From an uncultured Clostridium sp. (lineage in GTDB: Bacteria > Bacillota > Clostridia > TANB77 > CAG-508), in NCBI GenBank assembly GCA_946545035.1, contig CAMNND010000002.1:1-49401 (forward strand): 49,401 bases of DNA, in the 5' to 3' direction. Numbering within the stretch: the first letter of the stretch is position 1; each line of letters starts with the position of its first letter. The position numbers were made by a program, and so were the translations under genes. Below are positions 1 through 43,115 of this stretch, in pieces. Below the pieces are notes generated by a model. The model did not search any database and had not been told where the DNA came from. It saw nothing but the letters and a program-made list of their open reading frames with translations.

Positions 1-31
1 AAGCTGCCGTACTATTATAGCACAGCAGCTT
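1..31 (-). terminator. Possible stem-loop just downstream of the 39..368 gene, cut by the window edge
   Basis: aagctgc (1-7) pairs with gcagctt (25-31). It lies a few nt past the minus-strand stop codon. Any U-tract would fall outside the window. Confidence 0.3.
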
Positions 32-38
32 ATTTATG

Positions 39-368
39 TCAATTATTAACTTCTTTTTTGTGTTTCTTTTCATTTAACTCTAATATATCCATTACAATTT
101 TCTTTTTTCTTTTATCAGCTATGTATCTTGTATACAAGTCAATTATAATACTGCATGCACATCTAGATAGACTTTGAATACCGTTATATCTATATTTATA
201 AAAGTTGTTTTTATTATTTCTCATTTCATCTATAGCTCTTTTAGGTATCTGAAAATATTCATCTCTTGGTATATAATTTAAAACTTCCAAAACTTCTACA
301 TATGCTTTACGCATATCTTCTTCACTATAACCATCCATAATAGCCATCCTATCTACGTTTTTTTTCAC
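39..368 (-). CDS. Small hypothetical protein (109 aa) with a lysine-rich C-terminus
   Basis: Open frame with a GTG start at 368; an alternative ATG is at 347 (MAIMDG...). No motif recognised. Its start overlaps the end of the start-less open frame at 352..594. Confidence 0.5.
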   Translation of the reverse strand: MKKNVDRMAIMDGYSEEDMRKAYVEVLEVLNYIPRDEYFQIPKRAIDEMRNNKNNFYKYRYNGIQSLSRCACSIIIDLYTRYIADKRKKKIVMDILELNEKKHKKEVNN

Positions 369-568
369 TTTTATTCTTCTTCATTGCCCTTCTTGATGCA
401 CGATTTAATTTTTCAATCTCAGCTCTTTCAATTTCTTGTGCACGAAGCACAGATTTAACAATTGAATCAAATCCTACAGGGCTAATCTCAATAATATTTT
501 TACTACTATTTTTTCTTATAATCTGTTCAAATCTATCTTTTATGGCCTGTATAAAATTTTTATTAACC

Positions 569-1726
569 TTATCTATATTTTTTCTTCCGTAATCTCATAA
601 AAATGTAATCATATATACTATTAATATCCATTACCTCTGTGTCAGAAAGTGCATTTATATCCGTAATATTTGAATATTCAATGAATTTTTCTTCTAAAAA
701 GTCTTCTAGCATCATATATGTTTCTTGTCCTTGCGGTACAAAATTTTCTCTTCTGAATTTTGTAGTCTCATTTATACCTTTAAAACGCGAAACTATATAA
801 CATAGCTTTTCTAAATTTTTAAAATCTAAACCTTCTTGCTCTACTTTCTTTTGATACTCTGGAATAACAAACCCATTAATAAATCCAAATTGAGCTATTC
901 CGTAAAATGTATCAAATGACTCTATGGATCTACTTGTTTCATCTCCTGGATTTTCTATATCTTCACACGCATCAATCGCAGCAAATTCTTTTGATGCAAT
1001 ATCAAAACTCTTTAAGAACAAGACTACATCGCCATCCTTCATATTAAGCATTTGACCTATTTTATGAAAATCTCCATCAGCTATTTTTAAAGTTTCTTCC
1101 TCGCCAATCAGCTCTGAAATCGTTTCAATATAGTATTTTTCAAGTGGATAAGCTTCTCTACTCATTTCAGTTCCTAGAATTTTCTCTGTAAGCCACACTG
1201 TAAATCCCTCATTAAATCCATCTCCAAGAGATGTATCATCTATTCTTCTATAAAAATTTTCTTTCATTAAAAATCGACGTAAAAAGCCTTTTGTACTTTT
1301 CAATTTAATAAATTCGTTAAAAACTCCTCTAATAACTTTTTTATTCTTTTTACCATTTGTCGAACATCCTGTTATTATTAGATCTTTCTGTCTTGCATTT
1401 ACCAATATAGCATGTATGCTTTCATGAACAACAATATGCATCATATCATTGTCTTTGCGAATATCCTCAATACTAAGTTTATTTTTAGAGCAGAAATGTA
1501 TTTCTTTATTAACAAGACTATATCTTGCTGCAACACCATCTTTTTTATCTATTGGTATTCTTCTAATAGAACTTATATTAGCTTCTAAAATTTCTTTCAT
1601 TCTATCGGGATTATTACCAAATAAATTCATAAAAGGTGTGTAATTTGGATACACTTCATCAACAAGAAATGTTATTAATTCTTGAACAGATATTTCATTA
1701 TCAATATATTCTTCAACTTCCTTCAT
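569..1726 (-). CDS. Cytoplasmic HExxH protein, putative gluzincin-like metallopeptidase
   Basis: 385-aa ORF. It has an HESIH motif (VVHESIHAIL), followed about 65 residues later by GFNEGFTVWLTE, which resembles the NEG third-ligand motif of gluzincins. No signal peptide or TM segment seen. Confidence 0.55.
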   Translation of the reverse strand: MKEVEEYIDNEISVQELITFLVDEVYPNYTPFMNLFGNNPDRMKEILEANISSIRRIPIDKKDGVAARYSLVNKEIHFCSKNKLSIEDIRKDNDMMHIVVHESIHAILVNARQKDLIITGCSTNGKKNKKVIRGVFNEFIKLKSTKGFLRRFLMKENFYRRIDDTSLGDGFNEGFTVWLTEKILGTEMSREAYPLEKYYIETISELIGEEETLKIADGDFHKIGQMLNMKDGDVVLFLKSFDIASKEFAAIDACEDIENPGDETSRSIESFDTFYGIAQFGFINGFVIPEYQKKVEQEGLDFKNLEKLCYIVSRFKGINETTKFRRENFVPQGQETYMMLEDFLEEKFIEYSNITDINALSDTEVMDINSIYDYIFMRLRKKKYR

Positions 1727-1744
1727 AAATTATCCTTTCATAAT

Positions 1745-3040
1745 TTATTCTGCAATCAAACATTCCGCATTTGCATCAACTATCATAACATCTTTTATTT
1801 TATTTTCTAATCCTTCATCTGTTCTATATTTTACAACCATATAATTTTTAGTATGGCCTTTATAATAGCCATTATCTTTTTCTTCAAAAAGGACTTGCAC
1901 TTTTTTACCTATATAAGATTTGTTATATTCTAATTCACTTTCATCAGAAAGCTCTATTAGTTTCTTACTTCTAATTTCTTTTATTTTAGAATCTACTTGA
2001 TTTGGCATTACAGCAGCTTTCGTTCCTTTTCGTGGTGAATATTTAAAAACATGCATATGATAAAATTTAATCTTCTTTAAGAATTCATATGTCTCATTAA
2101 ATTCTTCTACTGTCTCACCAGGAAATCCAACAATAATATCTGTAGTAAGTGCTGCATTTGGAAATTTTGCTCTTAGTCTGTTTGTTGCTTCAAAAAACTC
2201 CTCTGCAGTATATCTTCTGTTCATTCTTTTTAATGTTTCTGTACAACCACTTTGTAATGATAAATGAAAATGATCACATATTTTATCCAATTTAGATAAT
2301 CTTTCAATAAAATCATCAGTCATTATAATTGGCTCTATTGAACTTAATCTAATTCTTTGTAAGCCTTCGACTTCATTTATTTTTTCTAATAAATCAATTA
2401 ATGTTGTTCCATCTTTAAAATCTCTACCATAAGATGCAACATGTATTCCTGTAATTACAACCTCTTTAAATCCATCATCTACAACTTTTTTTACTTCTTC
2501 AATAACATTATCTATTGATCTACTTCTTATATGACCTCTTGCAAAAGGAATTAAGCAGTATGAACAAAATCTATCGCAGCCATCTTGTACCTTAATAACA
2601 GCTCTTGTTTTTTCAGTATATGTTGTTGGTCCAAATTCGACATATTCTTCCTTGTACATAACATCAGAAACAATTTCGTTTACTTTATTATCAGCTCTAT
2701 ATTTTTCAATTATTTCAATAATATCATTTTTTTCATTATTACCAATTACTAAATTAACATCTTCAATTTTTTCAATTTCTTTAGCTGCAACTTGAGCATA
2801 GCACCCACAAGCAACAACTATAGAATTTTCATTATGTTCCTTTGCACGTCTTAACATTTGTCTAGATTTTTTATCTGCAATACTTGTGACTGTACATGTA
2901 TTTACAATATATATATCCGCTGGCTCTTCAAAATCTACTACGCTATATCCATGCTCGATAAATTTTTGTGCCATTGCGTTTGTCTCATATTGATTCACTT
3001 TACACCCTAATGAGCAAAAAGCTACCTTTAACTTTTCCAT
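1745..3040 (-). CDS. mtaB: tRNA threonylcarbamoyladenosine methylthiotransferase MtaB (radical SAM, MiaB-like)
   Basis: N-terminus is KVAFCSLGCKVNQYETNAM...YIVNTCTVT (UPF0004 Cys triad). Radical-SAM motif CDRFCSYC is present. Strong resemblance to B. subtilis YqeV. AGAGGA lies 6 nt upstream of the ATG at 3040, so I prefer that start over 3055. Confidence 0.9.
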   Translation of the reverse strand: MEKLKVAFCSLGCKVNQYETNAMAQKFIEHGYSVVDFEEPADIYIVNTCTVTSIADKKSRQMLRRAKEHNENSIVVACGCYAQVAAKEIEKIEDVNLVIGNNEKNDIIEIIEKYRADNKVNEIVSDVMYKEEYVEFGPTTYTEKTRAVIKVQDGCDRFCSYCLIPFARGHIRSRSIDNVIEEVKKVVDDGFKEVVITGIHVASYGRDFKDGTTLIDLLEKINEVEGLQRIRLSSIEPIIMTDDFIERLSKLDKICDHFHLSLQSGCTETLKRMNRRYTAEEFFEATNRLRAKFPNAALTTDIIVGFPGETVEEFNETYEFLKKIKFYHMHVFKYSPRKGTKAAVMPNQVDSKIKEIRSKKLIELSDESELEYNKSYIGKKVQVLFEEKDNGYYKGHTKNYMVVKYRTDEGLENKIKDVMIVDANAECLIAE

Positions 3041-3196
3041 ATATTTTCCTCTCATAATAATCTCAATACCAGTGATTATACCATTTTTATGTAAATATGT
3101 AAATACAAAACTCTCTTCAAATACAAGTATTTAAATATTCTTGGAAAATAAGTTGTATTAAATTCCAATTATCGATATAATAAGTATGGTGATATT

Positions 3197-4057
3197 ATGA
3201 GTAGAACAAAAGGAAAGAGATTTGCCGATAAGAAATCAAAAAAATCGGCAGAAAATATTGAAAAAAGAGAGAATAATAGCTCTGGTAAAGTAAAACAAAC
3301 AAACTTAAAGAAAAAGAATAAAAAACTATATAATATAATAATACTTATTTGTATTTGTGTAATAATCTATTCGTTATACAATATAGTTAAATGGGCAATA
3401 GAAAATAAAAAAAATAATGAGTTACTAAGTGAAGTTCAAAATATTGCACATATAACCCATGAGGAAATAGTAATTAACGAGCAACCCGTTGTTAAATCTA
3501 ATTATGATTTAACAGAGCTTTTAAATAGAAATCCAAATACTGTTGGATGGATTTACGTTCCAAATACCAAGATAGACTATCCCGTTGTTCAAGCAAATGA
3601 TAATGACTATTATCTAACACATTCGTTCAATAATACAGAAAACTCTGCTGGTTGGGTATTTGCTGATTCATCTTGCGATGTTAAAAAATCTCAAAACGTT
3701 GTTATATACGGACATAATAGAAAAGATAGAAGCATGTTCGGATCACTAAAAAATGTTCAAGATGACGAATGGCTTTCTAACCCAAGTAACCACTATATTA
3801 CATTTGCTAATCTAGATGACACCGGTATCTATAAGATTTTTTCAGTATTTGTAGTCAATGACGAACATGTTAATTCATACTTAGAAACCGACTTTACTTC
3901 TGACGAAGCATTTAAAACTTACTTAAGAAAAATTAAAAATACAAGTTATCAACAATTTGACACTGATATAGAAAATACAGAAAAAATCATAACATTGTAT
4001 ACATGTTATGGAGCAAACAATCAAAGATTACTTGTATATGCTGCAAAGGTATTTTAG
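3197..4057 (+). CDS. srtB: Class B sortase
   Basis: N-terminal TM anchor. Motifs: GWIYVPNTKIDYPVVQANDNDYYL, catalytic His in VVIYGHN, catalytic Cys in ITLYTCY. The layout closely parallels SrtB of C. difficile and S. aureus. Confidence 0.88.
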   Translation: MSRTKGKRFADKKSKKSAENIEKRENNSSGKVKQTNLKKKNKKLYNIIILICICVIIYSLYNIVKWAIENKKNNELLSEVQNIAHITHEEIVINEQPVVKSNYDLTELLNRNPNTVGWIYVPNTKIDYPVVQANDNDYYLTHSFNNTENSAGWVFADSSCDVKKSQNVVIYGHNRKDRSMFGSLKNVQDDEWLSNPSNHYITFANLDDTGIYKIFSVFVVNDEHVNSYLETDFTSDEAFKTYLRKIKNTSYQQFDTDIENTEKIITLYTCYGANNQRLLVYAAKVF

Positions 4058-38485: not shown

Positions 38486-39196
38486 TTACATAAAATAATC
38501 CATCAATCCACTATATATCCCCCAAGCTAATCTATCCTGATACTCGTCATTTAAAAGCTCTTTTTCTTCTTCTGGATTTGACAAAAAGCCACATTCTACA
38601 ATTGTAATTGGAATTTCTACATTCTTTACAATATAGATACTATCCAGTTTCATTGGAACTCTGTCATTTTTCTTTTGAATTGACTTATTTAAATTATTTT
38701 GGATTGATTTTGCAAGTTTTATACTATTTTCATCCGAAGATTTGTAAAAAGTTTGCCATCCGTAATACTTCTGATCTGAGATTTTATTTAAATGAATAGA
38801 AATAAACATATCTGCAGAAGACTCATTTCCAATCTTAACTCTATTTTTTAAATCTGATATCTTCTTCTCTTTAAGTGTTTTACTATCAATATCGTATATT
38901 CCGTTATCATCAGATCTCGTTAGTATTACTATTGCTCCACTTTGCTCTAGCAATTTTTGAAGTTTAAGAGCTATACTTAAATTTATTTTAGCCTCACTTA
39001 TGCCATTTATACTTTCAGCACCTTCATCCGGGATACCATGACCTGCATCTATTACAATTACTTTACCTGTTACAGGTAAAGTAACGGTTTGAAGAGTACT
39101 TCTATAATTTGTTTGTTCATATATACAAAACGCTATAACAGAAAGAAATATAAATATGGTTGATAATACCAATTTATCTTTTTTTATAAAAATCAT
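38486..39196 (-). CDS. cwlD: N-acetylmuramoyl-L-alanine amidase, CwlD-like (germination-specific type)
   Basis: N-terminal TM. Amidase_3 motifs: VIVIDAGHGIPDEGA, FISIHLN, VECGFLSNPEE. The ~236-aa size is typical of CwlD. Confidence 0.85.
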   Translation of the reverse strand: MIFIKKDKLVLSTIFIFLSVIAFCIYEQTNYRSTLQTVTLPVTGKVIVIDAGHGIPDEGAESINGISEAKINLSIALKLQKLLEQSGAIVILTRSDDNGIYDIDSKTLKEKKISDLKNRVKIGNESSADMFISIHLNKISDQKYYGWQTFYKSSDENSIKLAKSIQNNLNKSIQKKNDRVPMKLDSIYIVKNVEIPITIVECGFLSNPEEEKELLNDEYQDRLAWGIYSGLMDYFM

Positions 39197-39199
39197 AAA

Positions 39200-39229
39200 A
39201 ACACCTCATATTTTAATATATGAGGTGTT
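39200..39229 (-). terminator. Hairpin/terminator downstream of the Hip-like operon that also contains the cwlD Shine-Dalgarno
   Basis: An 11-bp perfect stem, 39200-39210 with 39219-39229. On the minus-strand transcript the 3' arm contains GAGGTG (39207-39202), and the following U-rich tract contains the cwlD ATG (39196). Confidence 0.65.
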
Positions 39230-39296
39230 CTTATTTATATTCTACCTTATTCAAATTAACATATTTTATTATTATAGAAACATTTATAATCTCAAA

Positions 39297-39644
39297 TTAC
39301 TTCTCTCTTATTTTCACAAAGTATCTGTCTGTAGCTAGTCTAGCTTCTGTAACACTTAATAGTTCCATCTCGTCATATTTTTTTAATCCATATTTTTTTA
39401 ATATTGAATCAATTTTTGGATGCTCTCTACTTGGTATACGATTGCTAAAGAATGGAAAAAGCTCTTTAGATACATATTTACTTTTTAGGAACTTAATATT
39501 TCCAATGCCGAAACACCCATGATGAGTAGCTTTTTTTAGCTCCGGCTCATTTATATATAATACGTATAACTCATTTATTCTCTCCAAAGTCGCCAAATTA
39601 TAATTATTCTTTTCAGTATCACTCCAATATAAATCTAAAATCAT
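39297..39644 (-). CDS. HipA N-terminal subdomain-like protein (HipS-like, 115 aa)
   Basis: ELFPFFSNRIPSREHPKIDSILKKYGLKKYDEMELLSVTEARLATDRYFV parallels E. coli HipA FNFFDNLLPDSPIVRDRIVKRY...FDLLSEIGRDSVGAV. Its ATG directly abuts the TAA of the upstream kinase gene, and an AGGGAGA RBS lies inside that gene. Confidence 0.7.
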   Translation of the reverse strand: MILDLYWSDTEKNNYNLATLERINELYVLYINEPELKKATHHGCFGIGNIKFLKSKYVSKELFPFFSNRIPSREHPKIDSILKKYGLKKYDEMELLSVTEARLATDRYFVKIREK

Positions 39645-40640
39645 TTAAGATATCTCCCTATCCTCTATATTTATATTTTGCGTATGATCAATAAATTCTT
39701 TAACTATTTCCATTTGCTGTTTCCAAAAATCCCTAAACACGTATTTTGATTCCTTACTAACCAGTCCTCTGTTAGGTCCTGATACTTTTATTGAAACAAC
39801 CCTATCAATGTCAATAGTTAATACTTTTTCTCTAATCCACTTTACCAAATCATCATCATCTTTATAATATTCAAGAACCGATGCCAATCCTTCTTTTCCT
39901 CGCACTTTGAAGCACTTCTTATTTGAAGCTACGTTTCCCATACAAAAATCGAAATCATATAATGGAGCCATTCTAACAACTCCATTATTAATTATAATTG
40001 ACATATTTTCTGACGAAATATCTGTATTATTTATAATCTCGCTCATACAAATTTTTCTTCTTAAATCTTGTATAAACCTGTCTATGTTTTTTTTCTTAAA
40101 ATGTCTTAATTGCAGCTCTCTTACTAATCTATTTTCTATAATTTCTATATCAAGACATTCTTGCCCAAAAATATCCTTAAAACTTAACATCTCATCACCA
40201 TCTTTTAAAAACGATGGTGTCAATAAAAAGTCATCTTCCCATGTAGTTACCGAATCATCCATAACCCAGTTCACAAGGTAGTACTCAGCAGAATCTAATC
40301 CAGCAGCTTTAACTAATCTAGGAACTACTAGTGCATTATCTCGCGTATAAAGACCAATTCTGTCAGAAAAAAATCTCCAACTTGGTAACTCTTTTAACAA
40401 GTAACTATTTAAATCACTAAGTCTTAACCAGAACTGTGAGAAACATCCTTTTACACTTTTATTTTCCATAAAATATGGATTTTTAAGTAAATCAACTATA
40501 ACGACATCTGGAGTTCTTCTTCCTTTAAGTTTATTATACTCTGCATATGCTTTCTCATATTCTTCCTGTCTTAATTGACTATCTGGCACTAATTCTTTTA
40601 TCTTCTGTATATATTCTTCCAGTGTTAATTTTTCCTTCAT
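39645..40640 (-). CDS. HipA-family Ser/Thr kinase core without the N-subdomain (HipT-like, 331 aa)
   Basis: By-eye alignment to E. coli HipA:
- SVKGCFSQFWLRL vs the Gly-rich loop SVAGAQEKTALLR
- SYLLKELP vs THIIKLP (ATP-binding Lys)
- LVKAAGLDSAEYYLV vs LAKELGLNVPDAEII
- MSEIINNTDISSENMSIIINNGVVRMAPLYDF vs FQWLIGATDGHAKNFSVFIQAGGSYRLTPFYDI (catalytic D, N, and D of YD conserved)
AGGAG RBS lies 7 nt before the ATG. Confidence 0.7.
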   Translation of the reverse strand: MKEKLTLEEYIQKIKELVPDSQLRQEEYEKAYAEYNKLKGRRTPDVVIVDLLKNPYFMENKSVKGCFSQFWLRLSDLNSYLLKELPSWRFFSDRIGLYTRDNALVVPRLVKAAGLDSAEYYLVNWVMDDSVTTWEDDFLLTPSFLKDGDEMLSFKDIFGQECLDIEIIENRLVRELQLRHFKKKNIDRFIQDLRRKICMSEIINNTDISSENMSIIINNGVVRMAPLYDFDFCMGNVASNKKCFKVRGKEGLASVLEYYKDDDDLVKWIREKVLTIDIDRVVSIKVSGPNRGLVSKESKYVFRDFWKQQMEIVKEFIDHTQNINIEDREIS

Positions 40641-40763
40641 AATTGTACTCCTAAAAATGATAAACAGATTATATCACGGATTTTTCCAATGTAAATATAT
40701 GTATGTTATTGTTGCTAATATTTTTTTATGATATTATATTTTAAGAGTTAAACGAAAGGGAAA

Positions 40764-42122
40764 ATGTATATGAATTTTTATAACATGAATAAAGGTATTG
40801 GGCTTGCCCAGGGTATTGATACGGATACAAGTACTTATATGTCATATAATACTAATATTTTTACAGTAAGTGATGATATATCAACTGTTTTTTCTAACTT
40901 TTTATCCCCAAATATTAAACGAAAGCTTGGTTCATATGTGATTTTTGATAAGAATTGTAAACTTTACGATCTATGCAAAGATCATTTTGAAAATTTTGGT
41001 TATGAAATAGAAAAATACCAACTAAACGATACTTTTAATACATTTAATAATGTAAACGGTGAAGATGACATACAGGCGCTCGTGACTGCTGTGCTTAGAA
41101 ATAGTTCAGAAATCCAAAGATTTTTGTATGAAGGACATACCGAAGTAGATTTACTTTATTCATACACTGATTTATTATTAAATCTAATCTTAATATATAT
41201 TGTAGATAAAGTCTCTTCTGAAAAGAAAAATTTTAATTATATTAATAAGATTTTACATAAGTTAAATCAAAATGATTTAGAATATTTTAAGAAAATATTT
41301 GGAAAAGTTGACTCTTCATATAAGATACATAGCTCTATATTTCATCTAAAATACATGAAAGAAGATGAATATAAGAAAAGTTTGTCTATTTTAATAAGCA
41401 TGTTGTCAAAAACAACCGATACCATTGCAACCAAAACTACTATTATTGATAAGATAGAGTCTTTATACACTAACAGAAAGCTAAAACTTATTTTTATTGA
41501 GCTAACTGACACTACCGTTATAGATTCTTTTTTCTGTTCATATGTTGAAGAAAATTGCTATAAAGCCGATGTTACAAAGAAAGCAATTCCAGTTTTTTAT
41601 GTGTATGCCACTTTGGAAAGAATTGGTTATATTCCAAATTTCAGAAAATTAATTGAAGATTATGATAAAAGAAACGATATCCATATTCTAGCACTAGAAA
41701 ATGTAGCAACTTCTATAAAATTATATGGAAAAGATATACGAACTATCATGAAAAATATTCACTATGGATTAATGTTCCAAACAAAAAACGAAAAAAATAT
41801 GAAATACACACAAAAACTACTATCTGATAGTAATATATCTGATCTAATGGAACAGATACTAATTAATCCAAATTATTGTGTTCTTTATAGAAACCAAATA
41901 AAGACATCTGTAGAACAAACGTTATCTGACGAAGAAGATTCTTCTGAAGATACAAGTAATACTACTAGCACTGACTCTGCTTCAGAAGCGTTAAAAAAGC
42001 TGATGGATTCTATAGATACAAAAGAAGATCTCATCGCTCAATTGCAAAAAGACATTAATGCTGAAACGGACTCAATAAAAAGACAACATTTTGTTAATTT
42101 ATATAATAATTTCGTAGAATAA
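40764..42122 (+). CDS. Soluble VirD4/TraG coupling-protein-like protein with degenerate Walker motifs
   Basis: SYVIFDKNCKLYDLCKDHFENFGYEIEKYQLND..FN parallels the T4CP pattern S.vv.D.KgE.y..T......GY.V...n...s..yNP. IPVFYVYATLERIGYIPNFRKLIEDYDKRNDIHILALENVATSIKLYGKDIRTIMKNIHYGLMF parallels .v.f.lDEF.n.g.ip.f...i...R..gi...l..Qs..QL...YG.....i..N....l.l. The Walker A position reads VSDDIST and the Walker B DEF reads ATLE. No TM segment. Acidic, Ser-rich C-terminal tail. The alternative ATG at 40770 has better RBS spacing. Confidence 0.45.
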   Translation: MYMNFYNMNKGIGLAQGIDTDTSTYMSYNTNIFTVSDDISTVFSNFLSPNIKRKLGSYVIFDKNCKLYDLCKDHFENFGYEIEKYQLNDTFNTFNNVNGEDDIQALVTAVLRNSSEIQRFLYEGHTEVDLLYSYTDLLLNLILIYIVDKVSSEKKNFNYINKILHKLNQNDLEYFKKIFGKVDSSYKIHSSIFHLKYMKEDEYKKSLSILISMLSKTTDTIATKTTIIDKIESLYTNRKLKLIFIELTDTTVIDSFFCSYVEENCYKADVTKKAIPVFYVYATLERIGYIPNFRKLIEDYDKRNDIHILALENVATSIKLYGKDIRTIMKNIHYGLMFQTKNEKNMKYTQKLLSDSNISDLMEQILINPNYCVLYRNQIKTSVEQTLSDEEDSSEDTSNTTSTDSASEALKKLMDSIDTKEDLIAQLQKDINAETDSIKRQHFVNLYNNFVE

Positions 42123-42167: not shown

Positions 42168-43115
42168 TTATTGAATTCTTATAATTAAACAATATATAAT
42201 TGCCGCAAATATTTGTAGAGCAACAATAATTCCAGTAACTTTAAATATTTTCTCAATTCTTGCTCTTTTTGCCGCACTATTATAATATTTTCCAATTTGA
42301 ACCTCATTATGCTCAATAAACTCTGTAATATTATCTACATACACATTTTTTCTCGAACTTCTGTCATAGTGTGAATATTTCTTCTTTGGAGCAATACCAC
42401 TATATAGAGCCGCAGTGATTCCTTGTCCTATTATATTACCTATACCAAATGCAATTATGAAGAATATAATAACATATGAATATTTTGTGCTCTCTACAAC
42501 CTTATGTATGACATCTGGCAGTTCATCATATTTGATATTAAGTAATAGCATTGCAATATAGGCAATAATGAAACCTATTGTTAATGATAAACATTGTGAT
42601 CTAATAAATCTACGTTTAATGGTTTTATTATATCTATTTGGGCAACTGTTAAAAATATTAGCAATATCTGAATGAAGCTTATATGCTTCTTCTTCTAATT
42701 CTGTCGTATCTACAGAATAACGTACTTCATTCTCATATAAGTACAATTCTACATTTAATGTTTTTAATTTATTTCCTATATTTACATCCGTGTTATTTGT
42801 TCTTTCTGATCTTAGAAACATATTAAAACTTATATGAATACTATCTATTGCTGGTAAAAATCTATCTGTTAATTGACTTTTTAACCATTCAATGTCTTCT
42901 TTTTCGATATTTTCCCCACTTTTAAGCCTTACATCATAACGAACTATATCTTGAGTAACTCTATATATATTTACTTCATTTTTATTGTAATAGTTAAATT
43001 TTTTATCATATAAACCTAGTTTTTGATAATGTAATTTCTCATTTTCCAATAATTCCGCAATTTGTATAATAGTATCAGCAGATATTATTTTATTCTTTAT
43101 TTCTTCTTTTGTCAT
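42168..43115 (-). CDS. Hypothetical membrane protein: ~170-aa cytoplasmic N-domain plus three TM helices
   Basis: TM candidates are LSLTIGFIIAYIAMLLLNI, YSYVIIFFIIAFGIGNIIGQGITAALY and VTGIIVALQIFAAIIYCLII. No recognisable family motif in the soluble domain. Confidence 0.6.
   Translation of the reverse strand: MTKEEIKNKIISADTIIQIAELLENEKLHYQKLGLYDKKFNYYNKNEVNIYRVTQDIVRYDVRLKSGENIEKEDIEWLKSQLTDRFLPAIDSIHISFNMFLRSERTNNTDVNIGNKLKTLNVELYLYENEVRYSVDTTELEEEAYKLHSDIANIFNSCPNRYNKTIKRRFIRSQCLSLTIGFIIAYIAMLLLNIKYDELPDVIHKVVESTKYSYVIIFFIIAFGIGNIIGQGITAALYSGIAPKKKYSHYDRSSRKNVYVDNITEFIEHNEVQIGKYYNSAAKRARIEKIFKVTGIIVALQIFAAIIYCLIIRIQ

What the first reader, a model, noticed from the sequence alone, without database searches (positions are those of the whole stretch)
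39297..40640. Split HipA-like kinase module in reversed order: kinase core first, HipS-like N-subdomain second, no HipB
- **Kinase core.** The 331-aa product aligns by eye with the kinase core of E. coli HipA. It has a divergent Gly-rich loop (SVKGCFSQF), a Lys in LLKELP, catalytic NNTD....N, and APLYD.
- **Missing subdomain supplied separately.** The kinase lacks HipA N-subdomain 1. The 115-aa gene that starts on the nucleotide after its TAA carries the hallmark of that missing subdomain (FPFFSNRIPS...YDEMELLSVTEARLATD).
- **Why the order matters.** In HipA the N-subdomain comes first. In the tripartite hipBST system the order is hipB-hipS-hipT, and HipS acts as antitoxin to the HipT kinase.
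- **What differs here.** The order is kinase then HipS-like, so a nonsense mutation splitting a hipA gene cannot explain it. No HTH/HipB-type gene lies upstream; the upstream region is a 123-nt divergent promoter region.
- **Catalytic loop.** The conserved His and Lys of D-x-H-x-K-N are replaced, giving D-I-S-S-E-N.
- **Working hypothesis.** This is a two-component, HipB-less kinase toxin with a trans-acting N-subdomain antitoxin, of unknown target and unknown autoregulation. It sits in a small accessory islet.
Basis: partly seen in the sequence, partly recalled or inferred. Interest (0 to 1): 0.72.

Follow-up and report, generated by a model that had tools for sequence, protein, structure and literature searches.

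The report
Kinase-first split HipA-like kinase pair
Two adjacent genes in an uncultured gut Clostridia chromosome encode a very divergent HipA-type kinase core and, after it, the small domain that HipA normally carries at its front end; this gene layout was already described by bioinformatics in 2021, so it is a new and unusually divergent member of a known but never experimentally tested kind.

Summary
A 331-aa ORF (39645..40640, minus strand) and a 115-aa ORF (39297..39644, minus strand) meet at a TAA|ATG junction. They lie behind a near-consensus extended -10 promoter and ahead of a hairpin terminator.

- **Kinase.** Its model has the HipA/HipT/CtkA fold (Foldseek E about 1e-7). The catalytic Asp, Asn, Mg-binding Asp and ATP-binding Lys are invariant, but it is too divergent to pass Pfam HipA_C.
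[quoted passage not shown] 17 of 20 relatives match Pfam Couple_hipA.

- **Gene order.** Kinase first, HipS-like second and no HipB is the published hipJS / hipIN organisation (Gerdes 2021). PADLOC lists hipIN as defence candidate PDC-M03.
- **Location.** The pair is not in an accessory islet. It sits in the same housekeeping neighbourhood in at least five lineages, under purifying selection (dN/dS 0.10-0.16), yet evolves faster than its flanks. It has no close relative on sequenced plasmids or phages.
- **Catalytic loop.** D-I-S-S-E-N is one point on a family-wide continuum, not decay.

Toxicity, neutralisation and target are all untested. Verdict: new member of a known kind, of modest interest.

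The parts
40668..40695 (-). Sigma-70-type promoter of the operon: -35 TTTACA, 16-nt spacer, extended -10 TGaTATAAT
   Evidence: - The scan gives 11 of 12 matches with a TG motif.
- The core is conserved between the window and L006 although synonymous sites in the genes are saturated.
- L013 and L016 also carry TGaTATAAT upstream of the kinase.
- It is a consensus match only; function was not shown.
40648..40652 (-). Shine-Dalgarno AGGAG of the kinase gene, 7 nt before the ATG
   Evidence: Read directly from the sequence.
39645..40640 (-). 331-aa HipA-fold kinase core without N-subdomain 1. Gly-rich-like loop at about residues 60-72, K83, catalytic D207...N212 (D-I-S-S-E-N), Mg-binding D229 in APLYD
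   Evidence: - ORF.
- Invariant residues in 13 relatives.
- AF2 model pLDDT 72.6, core above 85.
- Foldseek hits to CtkA, HipT and HipA at E 2e-7 to 1e-5.
- Pfam HipA_C 19.1 bits, below the gathering threshold.
- PADLOC PDC-M03A E 6.7e-6.
- dN/dS 0.14-0.16.
39655..39659 (-). Shine-Dalgarno GGGAG of the small gene, inside the 3' end of the kinase gene, 10 nt before the ATG
   Evidence: Read directly from the sequence.
39297..39644 (-). 115-aa HipS-like protein of the HipN type, without a HIRAN domain. Hallmark L-F-P-F-F-x-N-R-I-P (residues 62-71) and a clade-specific invariant G-C-x-G-I-G loop (43-48)
   Evidence: - ORF.
- All listed relatives are 109-134 aa.
- Couple_hipA is hit by 17 of 20 members.
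- PDC-M03B N-terminal half, E 1.1e-19.
- phrog_8026, E 1.3e-12.
- hhalign to the phage HipN N-terminal domain, 98.2%, E 4.9e-14.
- AF2 pLDDT 92.5 with HipS-like order of elements (compared with PMC10627512).
- dN/dS 0.11-0.14.
39195..39234 (-). Intrinsic-terminator-like hairpin (17 pairs) plus T-run that closes the bicistronic unit. Its 3' arm contains the GAGGTG ribosome-binding site of the downstream Amidase_3 gene
   Evidence: - Terminator scan: 2 found against 0.3 expected.
- Inverted repeat with 20-nt arms, 90% complementary.
- Sequence.
40764..42122 (+). Divergently transcribed 452-aa gene of unknown function. It keeps this position in a related genome but is not shown to belong to the module
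   Evidence: - 58% identical homologue in the same divergent position in L006.
- Absent from the other lineages.
- Only a borderline Pfam TraG-D_C hit.
- Nothing in NCBIfam, PADLOC, PHROGs or the PDB.

Best explanation
This is a self-contained two-gene operon of the kinase-first, HipB-less Hip family type: hipJS-like, that is, a hipIN module without the HIRAN domain.

**Shown**
- A strong constitutive-looking promoter drives a HipT-like kinase core. A ribosome-binding site inside the kinase gene's end and a TAA|ATG junction then lead into a 115-aa HipS-like protein. A hairpin terminator ends the unit.
- The kinase keeps every residue needed for phosphotransfer: ATP-binding Lys, catalytic Asp, Mg-binding Asn and Asp.
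- Both genes are under purifying selection.
- The pairing is conserved in several lineages.

**Inferred by analogy with HipS-HipT and with HipA N-subdomain 1**
- The small protein docks on the kinase N-lobe through its three-helix subdomain, which carries the conserved LFPFFxNRIP motif.
- Docking holds the Gly-rich loop in a conformation that cannot bind ATP, so the complex is inactive.
- Loss or displacement of the small protein frees the kinase. The kinase then phosphorylates an essential cellular target and arrests growth. By precedent the target would be an aminoacyl-tRNA synthetase, but here it is unknown.
- The likely context is abortive phage infection or another stress.
- Because the HIRAN DNA-end-binding domain of HipN is missing, any trigger must act on the HipS-like domain or on the kinase itself.
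For: **Unit structure**
- ORFs and junction.
- Promoter and terminator.

**Kinase**
- HipA/HipT/CtkA fold.
- Invariant K83, D207, N212 and D229.
- The family-wide catalytic-loop continuum shows that only D...N is required.
- An HMM of the extended kinase family reaches the phage HipI kinase over its full length at 84 bits, but E. coli HipA only locally at 21 bits.

**Small protein**
- Matches Couple_hipA at family level, PDC-M03B and phrog_8026.
- Its predicted order of elements matches the published HipS description.

**Pairing and selection**
- Kinase then HipS adjacency holds in five lineages. The reverse order occurs in a sixth.
- Purifying selection on both genes.

**Conflict-type signals**
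- The pair evolves faster than its flanks: 66% and 74% identity against 86-95%.
- Differences between near-identical strains form localised recombination patches confined to these two genes.
- One strain carries a frameshifted kinase with the small gene intact.
- A variable stretch of defence-type genes lies 1-3 kb away in one lineage.
- The bona fide hipIN relative sits next to a prophage integrase and is a PADLOC defence candidate.

**Published support**
- HipS neutralises HipT at the Gly-rich loop (PMC10627512, PMC9325769).
- hipJS and hipIN are described organisations (PMC8262856).
- A lineage-conserved Hip toxin-antitoxin module has a precedent in Legionella (PMC10653801).
Against: - No toxicity, neutralisation, complex formation or phage phenotype was or could be tested.
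- The small-protein model finds no structural neighbour, not even HipS or HipA.
- Its profile match to HipA N-subdomain 1 is weak, E 0.07.
- The pair is vertically inherited among housekeeping genes and has no close relative on plasmids or phages. That is atypical for toxin-antitoxin or defence modules.
- The putative antitoxin is consistently more conserved than the putative toxin.
- The putative antitoxin is encoded second, with no DNA-binding autoregulator. Both points are unusual for type II toxin-antitoxin systems (general knowledge).
- Kinase relatives without any HipS-like gene nearby exist.
Confidence: 0.5

Rival explanations
1. Domesticated split kinase. The two proteins form an obligate heterodimer that reconstitutes a HipA-like enzyme. 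The small protein is a structural or activating N-subdomain, not an antitoxin. The enzyme has a housekeeping or regulatory role in this Clostridia lineage, and its unusual catalytic loop may mean a non-canonical substrate.
For: - The chromosomal position among housekeeping genes is the same in at least five lineages, down to 34-47% kinase identity.
- The kinase has no tblastn match in 72,556 plasmid or 50,697 phage records. The small protein has no plasmid match and only one distant phage match, a HipN.
- No mobility genes flank the pair.
- The small protein is always more conserved than the kinase: 74/66, 66/41, 57/47, 59/34 and 46/28 %.
- Kinase-first order with a TAA|ATG junction favours roughly equal amounts of the two proteins.
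- A conserved strong promoter shows no operator-like palindrome, and the operon has no DNA-binding protein.
- The catalytic loop lacks the Ser/Thr-kinase-type Lys.
- Distant relatives sit beside sporulation or division genes, such as SleB-YpeB and SepF-DivIVA.
Against: - The pair evolves much faster than its flanks, and dN/dS is 2-5 times higher.
- Recombination mosaics are confined to the two genes.
- A frameshifted kinase allele is tolerated.
- All characterised HipS proteins inhibit their kinase.
- The nearest annotated relatives are prophage-borne defence candidates.
- Some relatives lack the small protein altogether.
- Synteny was seen in only a handful of metagenome-assembled genomes. 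A wider presence/absence test failed for lack of comparable loci.
Confidence: 0.3
2. Dedicated anti-phage abortive-infection system, a HIRAN-less version of PADLOC candidate PDC-M03. The mechanism is the same as in the best explanation, but the biological role is specifically phage defence and a phage factor removes the HipS-like protein.
For: - Both proteins hit the PDC-M03A and PDC-M03B models.
- The hipIN module of phage phiCDKH02 lies at the prophage integrase end, like a moron gene.
- HipA-family kinases have recently been validated in defence (PMC13092281).
- A variable stretch of defence-type genes lies nearby in L013-L015.
- Fast evolution and recombination mosaics.
Against: - The match to PDC-M03A is weak, E 6.7e-6.
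- PDC-M03 is itself only a candidate. No experimental validation was found.
- The proposed sensor domain, HIRAN, is absent.
- The pair itself is conserved, not variable.
- The window holds no recognised defence genes beside it.
Confidence: 0.15
3. Inactive pseudokinase, or a decaying remnant of a hipA-type gene. The loss of the catalytic-loop His and Lys, and the split, would reflect degeneration or a nonsense split.
For: - D-x-H-x-K-N is replaced by D-I-S-S-E-N.
- Both Pfam domains score below their gathering thresholds.
- The Gly-rich loop is divergent and modelled with low confidence.
Against: - K83, D207, N212 and D229 are invariant.
- dN/dS is 0.10-0.16 for both genes.
- The loop variant is conserved and lies on a family-wide continuum.
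- The domain order (kinase then N-subdomain) is the reverse of hipA, so a nonsense split is impossible.
- The two-gene form and the roughly 115-aa length are conserved in at least 186 clusters.
Confidence: 0.04

Closest known systems
[quoted passage not shown] 2021 (PMC8262856)
   Same: - Short kinase core lacking N-subdomain 1, with the Gly-rich loop near the N-terminus.
- The downstream gene encodes a stand-alone HipS-type protein.
- No HipB/HTH gene.
- The proposed origin, deletion of the HIRAN domain from hipIN, fits what is seen here.
   Different: - hipJS was defined from only 2 modules and never tested experimentally.
- Its HipS is reported to branch with HipBST HipS and HipA N-subdomain 1. 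The protein here is clearly of the HipN type: E 5e-14 to HipN against 0.07 to the HipA N-terminal region.
- The kinase here is 331 aa against the reported 279-321 aa.
- Its catalytic loop has neither the His nor the Lys.
- Direct phylogenetic placement was not possible, because the clade XI sequences were not retrievable.
hipIN modules (HipI kinase plus HipN, HipS-like-HIRAN), equal to PADLOC candidate PDC-M03; example Clostridioides phage phiCDKH02 gp03/gp02
   Same: - Kinase-first order.
- The partner begins with the same HipS-like domain: 31% identity over 104 columns, hhalign 98%.
- No HipB.
- Found in Firmicutes.
- The kinase catalytic loop also lacks the HipA Lys (DRHQNN).
   Different: - The partner here has no HIRAN domain (115 aa against 235 aa).
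- The kinases are only remotely related (hhalign E 0.005; PDC-M03A E 6.7e-6).
- The window pair is fixed in the chromosome, whereas the phage example is on a mobile element next to an integrase.
HipBST of E. coli O127:H6 and Legionella pneumophila
   Same: - Split HipA: a kinase core (HipT) plus a separate N-subdomain-1-like protein (HipS).
- The kinase fold matches (7AB4, 8EZR among the top Foldseek hits).
- The Legionella system shows that a Hip toxin-antitoxin module can be conserved across a lineage.
   Different: - The gene order is the reverse (hipS before hipT in HipBST).
- HipBST has a third gene, hipB, an HTH autoregulator.
- HipT keeps D-x-H-x-R-N and the Gly-rich-loop phosphoserines.
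- HipS is shown experimentally to be the antitoxin.
HipBA of E. coli K-12
   Same: - Same kinase fold.
- Same catalytic Asp, Asn and Mg-binding Asp.
- The FxFFxNxxP motif of N-subdomain 1 recurs in the small protein.
   Different: - HipA is a single 440-aa polypeptide with the N-subdomain first.
- HipB is both antitoxin and repressor.
- The catalytic loop is D-G-H-A-K-N.
- It passes Pfam thresholds easily, whereas the window kinase does not.
HipL (kinase core, HipS-like and HIRAN domains in one polypeptide)
   Same: The domain order is kinase then HipS-like, as in the gene order here.
   Different: - HipL is a single polypeptide with a HIRAN domain.
- A 493-aa relative of the window kinase (P0013) may be an analogous fusion without HIRAN, but the evidence is only a 14-residue echo of the motif (E 0.08).

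Membership tests
HipA-like kinase superfamily (Pfam HipA_C fold) | HipA/PI3-4K-like kinase fold | tested here: met
   The AF2 model matches CtkA 3akj, HipT 7ab4 and 8ezr, 7vkc, and HipA 3tpv and 3fbr by Foldseek at E 2e-7 to 1e-5, probability 1.00, TM about 0.5.
HipA-like kinase superfamily (Pfam HipA_C fold) | Pfam HipA_C score at or above the gathering threshold | tested here: not met
   - 19.1 bits against the 30.5-bit cut-off, covering only the catalytic segment.
- Relatives score 17-28 bits.
- A profile search of PDB sequences found nothing.
HipA-like kinase superfamily (Pfam HipA_C fold) | ATP-binding Lys, catalytic Asp, Mg-binding Asn and Asp | tested here: met
   K83, D207, N212 and D229 are invariant in 13 relatives. 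D...N and the (A/S)P-x-(Y/F)-D motif are kept in nearly all of the extended family.
HipA-like kinase superfamily (Pfam HipA_C fold) | Catalytic loop D-x-H-x-K-N as in HipA | tested here: not met
   The loop is D-I-S-S-E-N. D-x-S/T-x-E-N is conserved in the clade, and the family shows a continuum of variants.
hipBST (tripartite split HipA) | hipB (HTH) gene in the operon | tested here: not met
   There is no third gene between promoter and terminator. No HTH hit was found in the operon or its neighbours.
hipBST (tripartite split HipA) | Gene order hipS then hipT | tested here: not met
   The kinase comes first here and in five lineages. The reverse order was seen only in the distant L019.
hipBST (tripartite split HipA) | Separate HipS protein homologous to HipA N-subdomain 1 | tested here: inconclusive
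   - Couple_hipA is hit by 17 of 20 members, best E 9.8e-6.
- hhalign to a HipA N-terminal profile gives a colinear match at E 0.07.
- The order of secondary-structure elements matches published HipS.
- Foldseek finds no HipS or HipA hit.
hipBST (tripartite split HipA) | Ser/Thr autophosphorylation sites in the Gly-rich loop; HipS Trp65 wedge | tested here: inconclusive
   - S63 is not conserved (mostly Asn), while S68 is nearly invariant.
- This region of the model has pLDDT below 50.
- The residue equivalent to Trp65 cannot be assigned without a complex structure.
hipJS (Gerdes 2021, clade XI) | Short kinase core followed by a stand-alone HipS gene, with no HTH partner | tested here: met
   The length of about 115 aa is conserved in the family.
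hipJS (Gerdes 2021, clade XI) | Kinase falls within the HipJ subclade of clade XI | not testable with these tools
   - The stored Table S1 is cut before clade XI.
- Indirect evidence only: the extended-family HMM scores a HipI kinase at 84 bits over its full length, against 21 bits for HipA.
hipJS (Gerdes 2021, clade XI) | HipS branches with HipBST HipS and HipA N-subdomain 1, not with HipN or HipL | tested here: not met
   The match to the HipN N-terminal domain is far stronger (E 4.9e-14) than the match to HipA N-subdomain 1 (E 0.07). No HipBST HipS sequence was available for a direct test.
hipIN / PADLOC PDC-M03 | Partner protein has a HipS-like domain plus a C-terminal HIRAN domain | tested here: not met
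   - The 115-aa protein covers only positions 12-114 of the 232-aa PDC-M03B profile.
- It has no HIRAN hit.
- All listed relatives are 109-134 aa.
- The reference phage HipN has HIRAN at E 2e-12.
hipIN / PADLOC PDC-M03 | Kinase matches the PDC-M03A models | tested here: inconclusive
   E 6.7e-6 at 23.8 bits, partial, against 5.5e-140 for the phage HipI kinase.
Type II toxin-antitoxin system | Toxin arrests growth, the partner neutralises it by direct binding, and the partner is labile | not testable with these tools
   This needs expression, rescue and stability experiments.
Type II toxin-antitoxin system | Patchy, horizontally mobile distribution | tested here: not met
   - The pair is syntenic in at least five lineages.
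- The kinase has no match on plasmids or phages. The small protein has none on plasmids and one distant phage match.
- This feature is typical, not obligatory; Legionella HipBST is a counter-example.

The most novel reading that the evidence does not exclude
The pair is not a toxin-antitoxin or defence module. It is a HipA-type kinase that an uncultured gut Clostridia lineage has kept at a fixed core-genome position since before its genera diverged, split permanently into two subunits. The highly conserved HipS-like protein would be an obligate structural or activating subunit. The kinase, with its His- and Lys-less D-x-S-x-E-N catalytic loop, would act on a non-canonical substrate in normal physiology. 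That would be a domesticated Hip kinase.
Probability: 0.2. Interest if true: 0.6.

Novelty: new member of a known kind. Interest (0 to 1): 0.3.

Why it matters
- **An untested class.** Kinase-first, HipB-less Hip modules (hipJS, hipIN, hipL) were predicted in 2021, and I found no experimental study of them. This clade adds a compact two-gene example. It lacks the HIRAN domain, so it isolates the question of what the HipS-like domain does on its own: inhibitor or subunit.
- **A blind spot in annotation.** Pfam and NCBIfam thresholds miss both proteins, so standard pipelines call them hypothetical. Searches for toxin-antitoxin or defence systems in gut Clostridia therefore under-count this family.
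- **A test of the usual assumption.** The pair combines long-term synteny, faster-than-flank evolution and a partner more conserved than the kinase. That makes it a useful test of whether Hip kinases are always selfish or defensive toxins.
- **Limits.** None of this changes current understanding until toxicity, interaction and target are measured.

Tried and rejected
**Searches that found nothing**
- Sequence searches of the PDB with single proteins and with family profiles gave nothing significant.
- Foldseek with the small-protein model against the PDB and BFVD gave nothing significant. The best BFVD hits were 236-aa phage proteins at E 0.026 with TM 0.19.
- Rfam and tRNA scans of the window were empty.
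- No operator-like palindrome was found at the promoter.
- The 452-aa and 315-aa neighbours have no informative hit in Pfam, NCBIfam, PADLOC, PHROGs or the PDB.

**Data that could not be obtained**
- I tried to retrieve HipJ, HipI, HipT and HipS sequences from Table S1 of Gerdes 2021. The stored text holds only clade I hipBA rows.
- I ran a presence/absence test on metagenomic loci that encode relatives of the flanking Amidase_3. Only the near-identical locus was syntenic; the rest had different neighbours, so the test was uninformative.

**Ideas rejected or left open**
- The C-terminal extension of the 493-aa relative as a fused HipS: only a 14-residue colinear echo, E 0.08.
- Diversifying selection as the cause of the two divergence patches: rejected, because the differences are mostly synonymous (dN/dS about 0.1). 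Recombination tracts are the better reading.
- The dN/dS value for M23 against L006 (1.5) is an alignment artefact and was ignored.
- A compositional islet was rejected: GC is uniform at 26-31% across the region.
Full report
**1. The observation**

The window carries two abutting minus-strand ORFs: 331 aa at 39645..40640 and 115 aa at 39297..39644. The kinase stop codon TAA (39647..39645) is followed immediately by the ATG of the small gene. All quoted motifs are present.

The 123-nt region upstream (40641..40763) faces a divergently transcribed 452-aa ORF. It contains a near-consensus promoter: TTTACA, a 16-nt spacer, then TGaTATAAT, scoring 11 of 12. An AGGAG ribosome-binding site lies 7 nt before the kinase ATG. 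A GGGAG ribosome-binding site for the small gene lies inside the kinase 3' end.

A 17-pair hairpin followed by a T-run (39234..39195) comes after the small gene. Its 3' arm overlaps the ribosome-binding site of the next gene, Amidase_3. The unit is therefore a discrete bicistronic operon. No known RNA family or tRNA occurs in the window, and base composition is uniform.

**2. What the two proteins are**

*Direct profile hits are weak.*
- Pfam HipA_C scores 19.1 bits against a threshold of 30.5.
- Couple_hipA scores 16.5 bits against 22.5.
- NCBIfam gives similar results.
- PDB sequence searches are empty, even with family profiles.

*Family-level and structural evidence is clear for the kinase.*
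- An AF2 model (pLDDT 72.6, core above 85) matches CtkA, HipT (E. coli O127 and Legionella) and HipA at Foldseek E 2e-7 to 1e-5, probability 1.00.
- K83, D207, N212, D229 and G65 are invariant in the 13 close relatives.

*The small protein is HipS-like.*
- 17 of 20 relatives match Couple_hipA, best E 9.8e-6.
- The protein matches the N-terminal half of PADLOC PDC-M03B at E 1.1e-19 and phage family phrog_8026.
- A tblastn search of phage genomes found a 235-aa 'HIRAN domain-containing protein' in Clostridioides phage phiCDKH02, encoded just downstream of a 289-aa 'HipA domain-containing protein' and next to the integrase.
- Those two phage proteins are PDC-M03A (E 5.5e-140) and PDC-M03B (E 1.3e-109). 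They carry Pfam HipA_C and HIRAN plus a weak Couple_hipA match. So PDC-M03 is the hipIN organisation.
- The window's small-protein family aligns to the N-terminal domain of that HipN over 104 columns, at hhalign probability 98.2% and E 4.9e-14.
- By contrast, its profile match to HipA N-subdomain 1 is weak but colinear, E 0.07. That profile used E. coli K-12 HipA plus eight Table S1 sequences.
- The AF2 model of the small protein is confident, pLDDT 92.5. Its order of elements is four N-terminal strands, a three-helix subdomain and a fifth strand, as published for HipS (PMC10627512; PMC9325769). It has one extra helix and an invariant G-C-x-G-I-G loop.
- Foldseek nevertheless found no significant neighbour in the PDB or BFVD. 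I report that as unexplained.

**3. The catalytic loop**

D-I-S-S-E-N does lack the His and Lys of HipA's D-x-H-x-K-N. But D-x-S/T-x-E-N is conserved in the clade.

I aligned the 123 near-full-length representatives (270-600 aa), drawn from the close relatives and the exhaustive profile search. Their loops form a continuum: DAHAKN, DRHTEN, DE(H/N)xxN, then DISSEN. Only the Asp and the Asn are constant. The phage HipI kinase has DRHQNN, and HipT has DMHLRN.

So the loop is a lineage variant of a catalytically plausible enzyme. It is not a sign of decay. dN/dS values of 0.10-0.16 for both genes agree with this.

**4. Rarity and placement**

- The exhaustive search of 1.84 billion representatives with the kinase profile found only 155 proteins at E 1e-3 or better.
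- The word-seeded search found 13.
- The small protein is more widespread: at least 186 clusters, and all of the best 120 are 109-134 aa.
- An HMM of the extended kinase family reaches the phage HipI kinase over its full length at 84 bits, but E. coli HipA only locally at 21 bits.
- Distant relatives hit PDC-M03A only moderately.

The clade therefore belongs with the clade XI-like small Hip kinases. It is a divergent sister group, not a core member of PDC-M03A.

**5. Comparison with the literature**

Gerdes, Baerentsen and Brodersen 2021 (PMC8262856) define ten Hip gene organisations. In clade XI the HipM, HipI and HipJ kinases lack N-subdomain 1 and have downstream putative antitoxins.
- HipN is a HipS-like domain plus HIRAN (hipIN, 14 modules).
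- HipS stands alone in hipJS (2 modules).

I found no experimental work on hipJS, hipIN or PDC-M03.

HipS-mediated neutralisation of HipT at the Gly-rich loop is established for E. coli O127 and Legionella.

**6. Genomic context**

The pair is not in an accessory islet. In a sheep-ileum Clostridia metagenome-assembled genome (L006/L010) the order matches the window:
- IMS polymerase, a 146-aa gene, a divergent 381-aa gene, the kinase, HipS, Amidase_3, M23, AI-2E, GdpP and SMC.

Three further lineages keep the pair beside the same cation ATPase, Amidase_3 and M23 genes or beside HAD and PPIase.

Protein identity against L006:

| Protein | Identity |
|---|---|
| Flanking proteins | 86-95% |
| HipS-like protein | 74% |
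| Kinase | 66% |
| Divergent 452-aa neighbour | 58% |

- dN/dS is 0.03-0.06 for the flanks and 0.14-0.16 for the pair.
- The small protein is always more conserved than the kinase.
- Among near-identical strains, nucleotide differences pile up in two patches: kinase residues about 214-280 and HipS residues about 15-81. They are mostly synonymous, so they are recombination tracts.
- One strain has a 1-nt deletion in an A8 run that splits the kinase while the small gene stays intact.
- The kinase has no tblastn match in 72,556 plasmid or 50,697 phage records. The small protein's only match is the phage HipN.
- One distant lineage (L019) has the reverse order.
- Four lineages have a kinase relative with no HipS-like ORF within about 7 kb.

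**7. Mechanism and rivals**

*Best-supported reading (confidence 0.5).* This is a hipJS-type module. The HipS-like protein binds the kinase N-lobe as HipS binds HipT and keeps it inactive. Release gives a growth-arresting kinase, possibly in phage defence.

*Main rival (0.3).* This is a domesticated split kinase in which the small protein is a constitutive subunit. Supporting points:
- fixed synteny;
- absence from mobile elements;
- the partner being more conserved than the kinase;
- kinase-first order with a tight junction;
- no autoregulator.

Faster evolution, recombination mosaics, the tolerated frameshift and the defence-candidate relatives argue the other way.

*Minor rivals.* A pseudokinase or nonsense-split origin is essentially excluded (0.04). 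A dedicated anti-phage role is the same mechanism with a specific biological reading (0.15).

**8. Verdict**

- The novelty claim is not supported, because the organisation is published.
- What is new is a rare, highly divergent, chromosomally fixed Clostridia clade of that organisation. It has a HIRAN-less HipN-type partner and a catalytic loop without His or Lys.
- Rating: new member of a known kind; interest 0.3.

Noticed in passing
window 40087-40094 (A8 run on the coding strand, kinase codons K-K-K-N); L026 5558-6552: A strain with an identical flanking Amidase_3 has a 1-nt deletion in this homopolymer. It splits the kinase into 185-aa and 133-aa ORFs while the small gene stays intact. 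It could be a real toxin-inactivating or phase-variable frameshift, or an assembly error.
   Followed up: partly
window 39800-39999 and 39400-39599: Among strains that are otherwise nearly identical over 12 kb, nucleotide differences cluster in two 200-nt bins. One lies in the kinase (14-17 differences) and one in the HipS-like gene (27 differences). They are mostly synonymous, which suggests imported recombination tracts at this locus.
   Followed up: partly
window 39195-39234 and the Amidase_3 start at 39196: The terminator hairpin after the small gene contains, in its 3' arm, the GAGGTG ribosome-binding site of the downstream CwlD-like Amidase_3 gene. Folding of the hairpin could therefore occlude translation initiation on read-through transcripts.
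   Followed up: no
window 40764-42122 (+) and 42168-43115 (-): - A 452-aa ORF transcribed divergently from the kinase gene has a 58% identical homologue in the same position in L006.
- A 315-aa ORF with predicted C-terminal membrane segments is absent from L006.
- Neither has an informative database hit; the 452-aa ORF has only a borderline TraG-D_C match.
- Together with a PPIase gene, they form the truly variable part of the region.
   Followed up: partly
L013, L014, L015 positions 1-4000: Three otherwise syntenic contigs carry different defence-type genes 1-3 kb upstream of HAD, PPIase, kinase and HipS.
- L013: OLD-TOPRIM ATPase plus UvrD helicase (Gabija-like).
- L014: AAA_21 plus RloB.
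- L015: DpnII plus an AAA_21-like gene (faint Pfam hit) plus TnpV.
This looks like a variable stretch of defence genes beside the conserved pair.
   Followed up: no
L002-L005 and L011 (protein P0013, 493 aa): A kinase relative sits in the same upstream synteny as L016 (ArsC/Spx-like gene, then the kinase) but has no separate HipS-like gene. It carries a C-terminal extension of about 150 aa with a colinear 14-residue echo of the HipS hallmark: EKELFNYLCDRIY against SKELFPFFSNRIP, hhalign E 0.08. It may be a decayed kinase-HipS fusion.
   Followed up: partly
L019 7001-8476: A distant lineage has the opposite gene order: a 113-aa HipS-like gene, then a 368-aa kinase relative. The pair lies between QueH and DNA polymerase I, so both orders occur in this family.
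   Followed up: partly
L020 (1-5089) and L023/L024: More distant kinase relatives without a HipS-like partner lie beside sporulation or division genes.
- L020: M50 protease, BofA, SleB, YpeB, then the kinase.
- L023/L024: a 614-aa HD-domain protein, the kinase, then SepF and DivIVA.
Together with the CwlD-like Amidase_3 next to the window pair, this hints at a recurring association with the spore or cell envelope. It may be coincidence.
   Followed up: no
window 39297-39644, residues 42-48 of the small protein: An invariant H-G-C-x-G-I-G loop follows an extra helix (residues 33-41). It is specific to this stand-alone family and absent from the phage HipN domain. Its function is unknown, and it may explain why Foldseek found no HipS match.
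   Followed up: no
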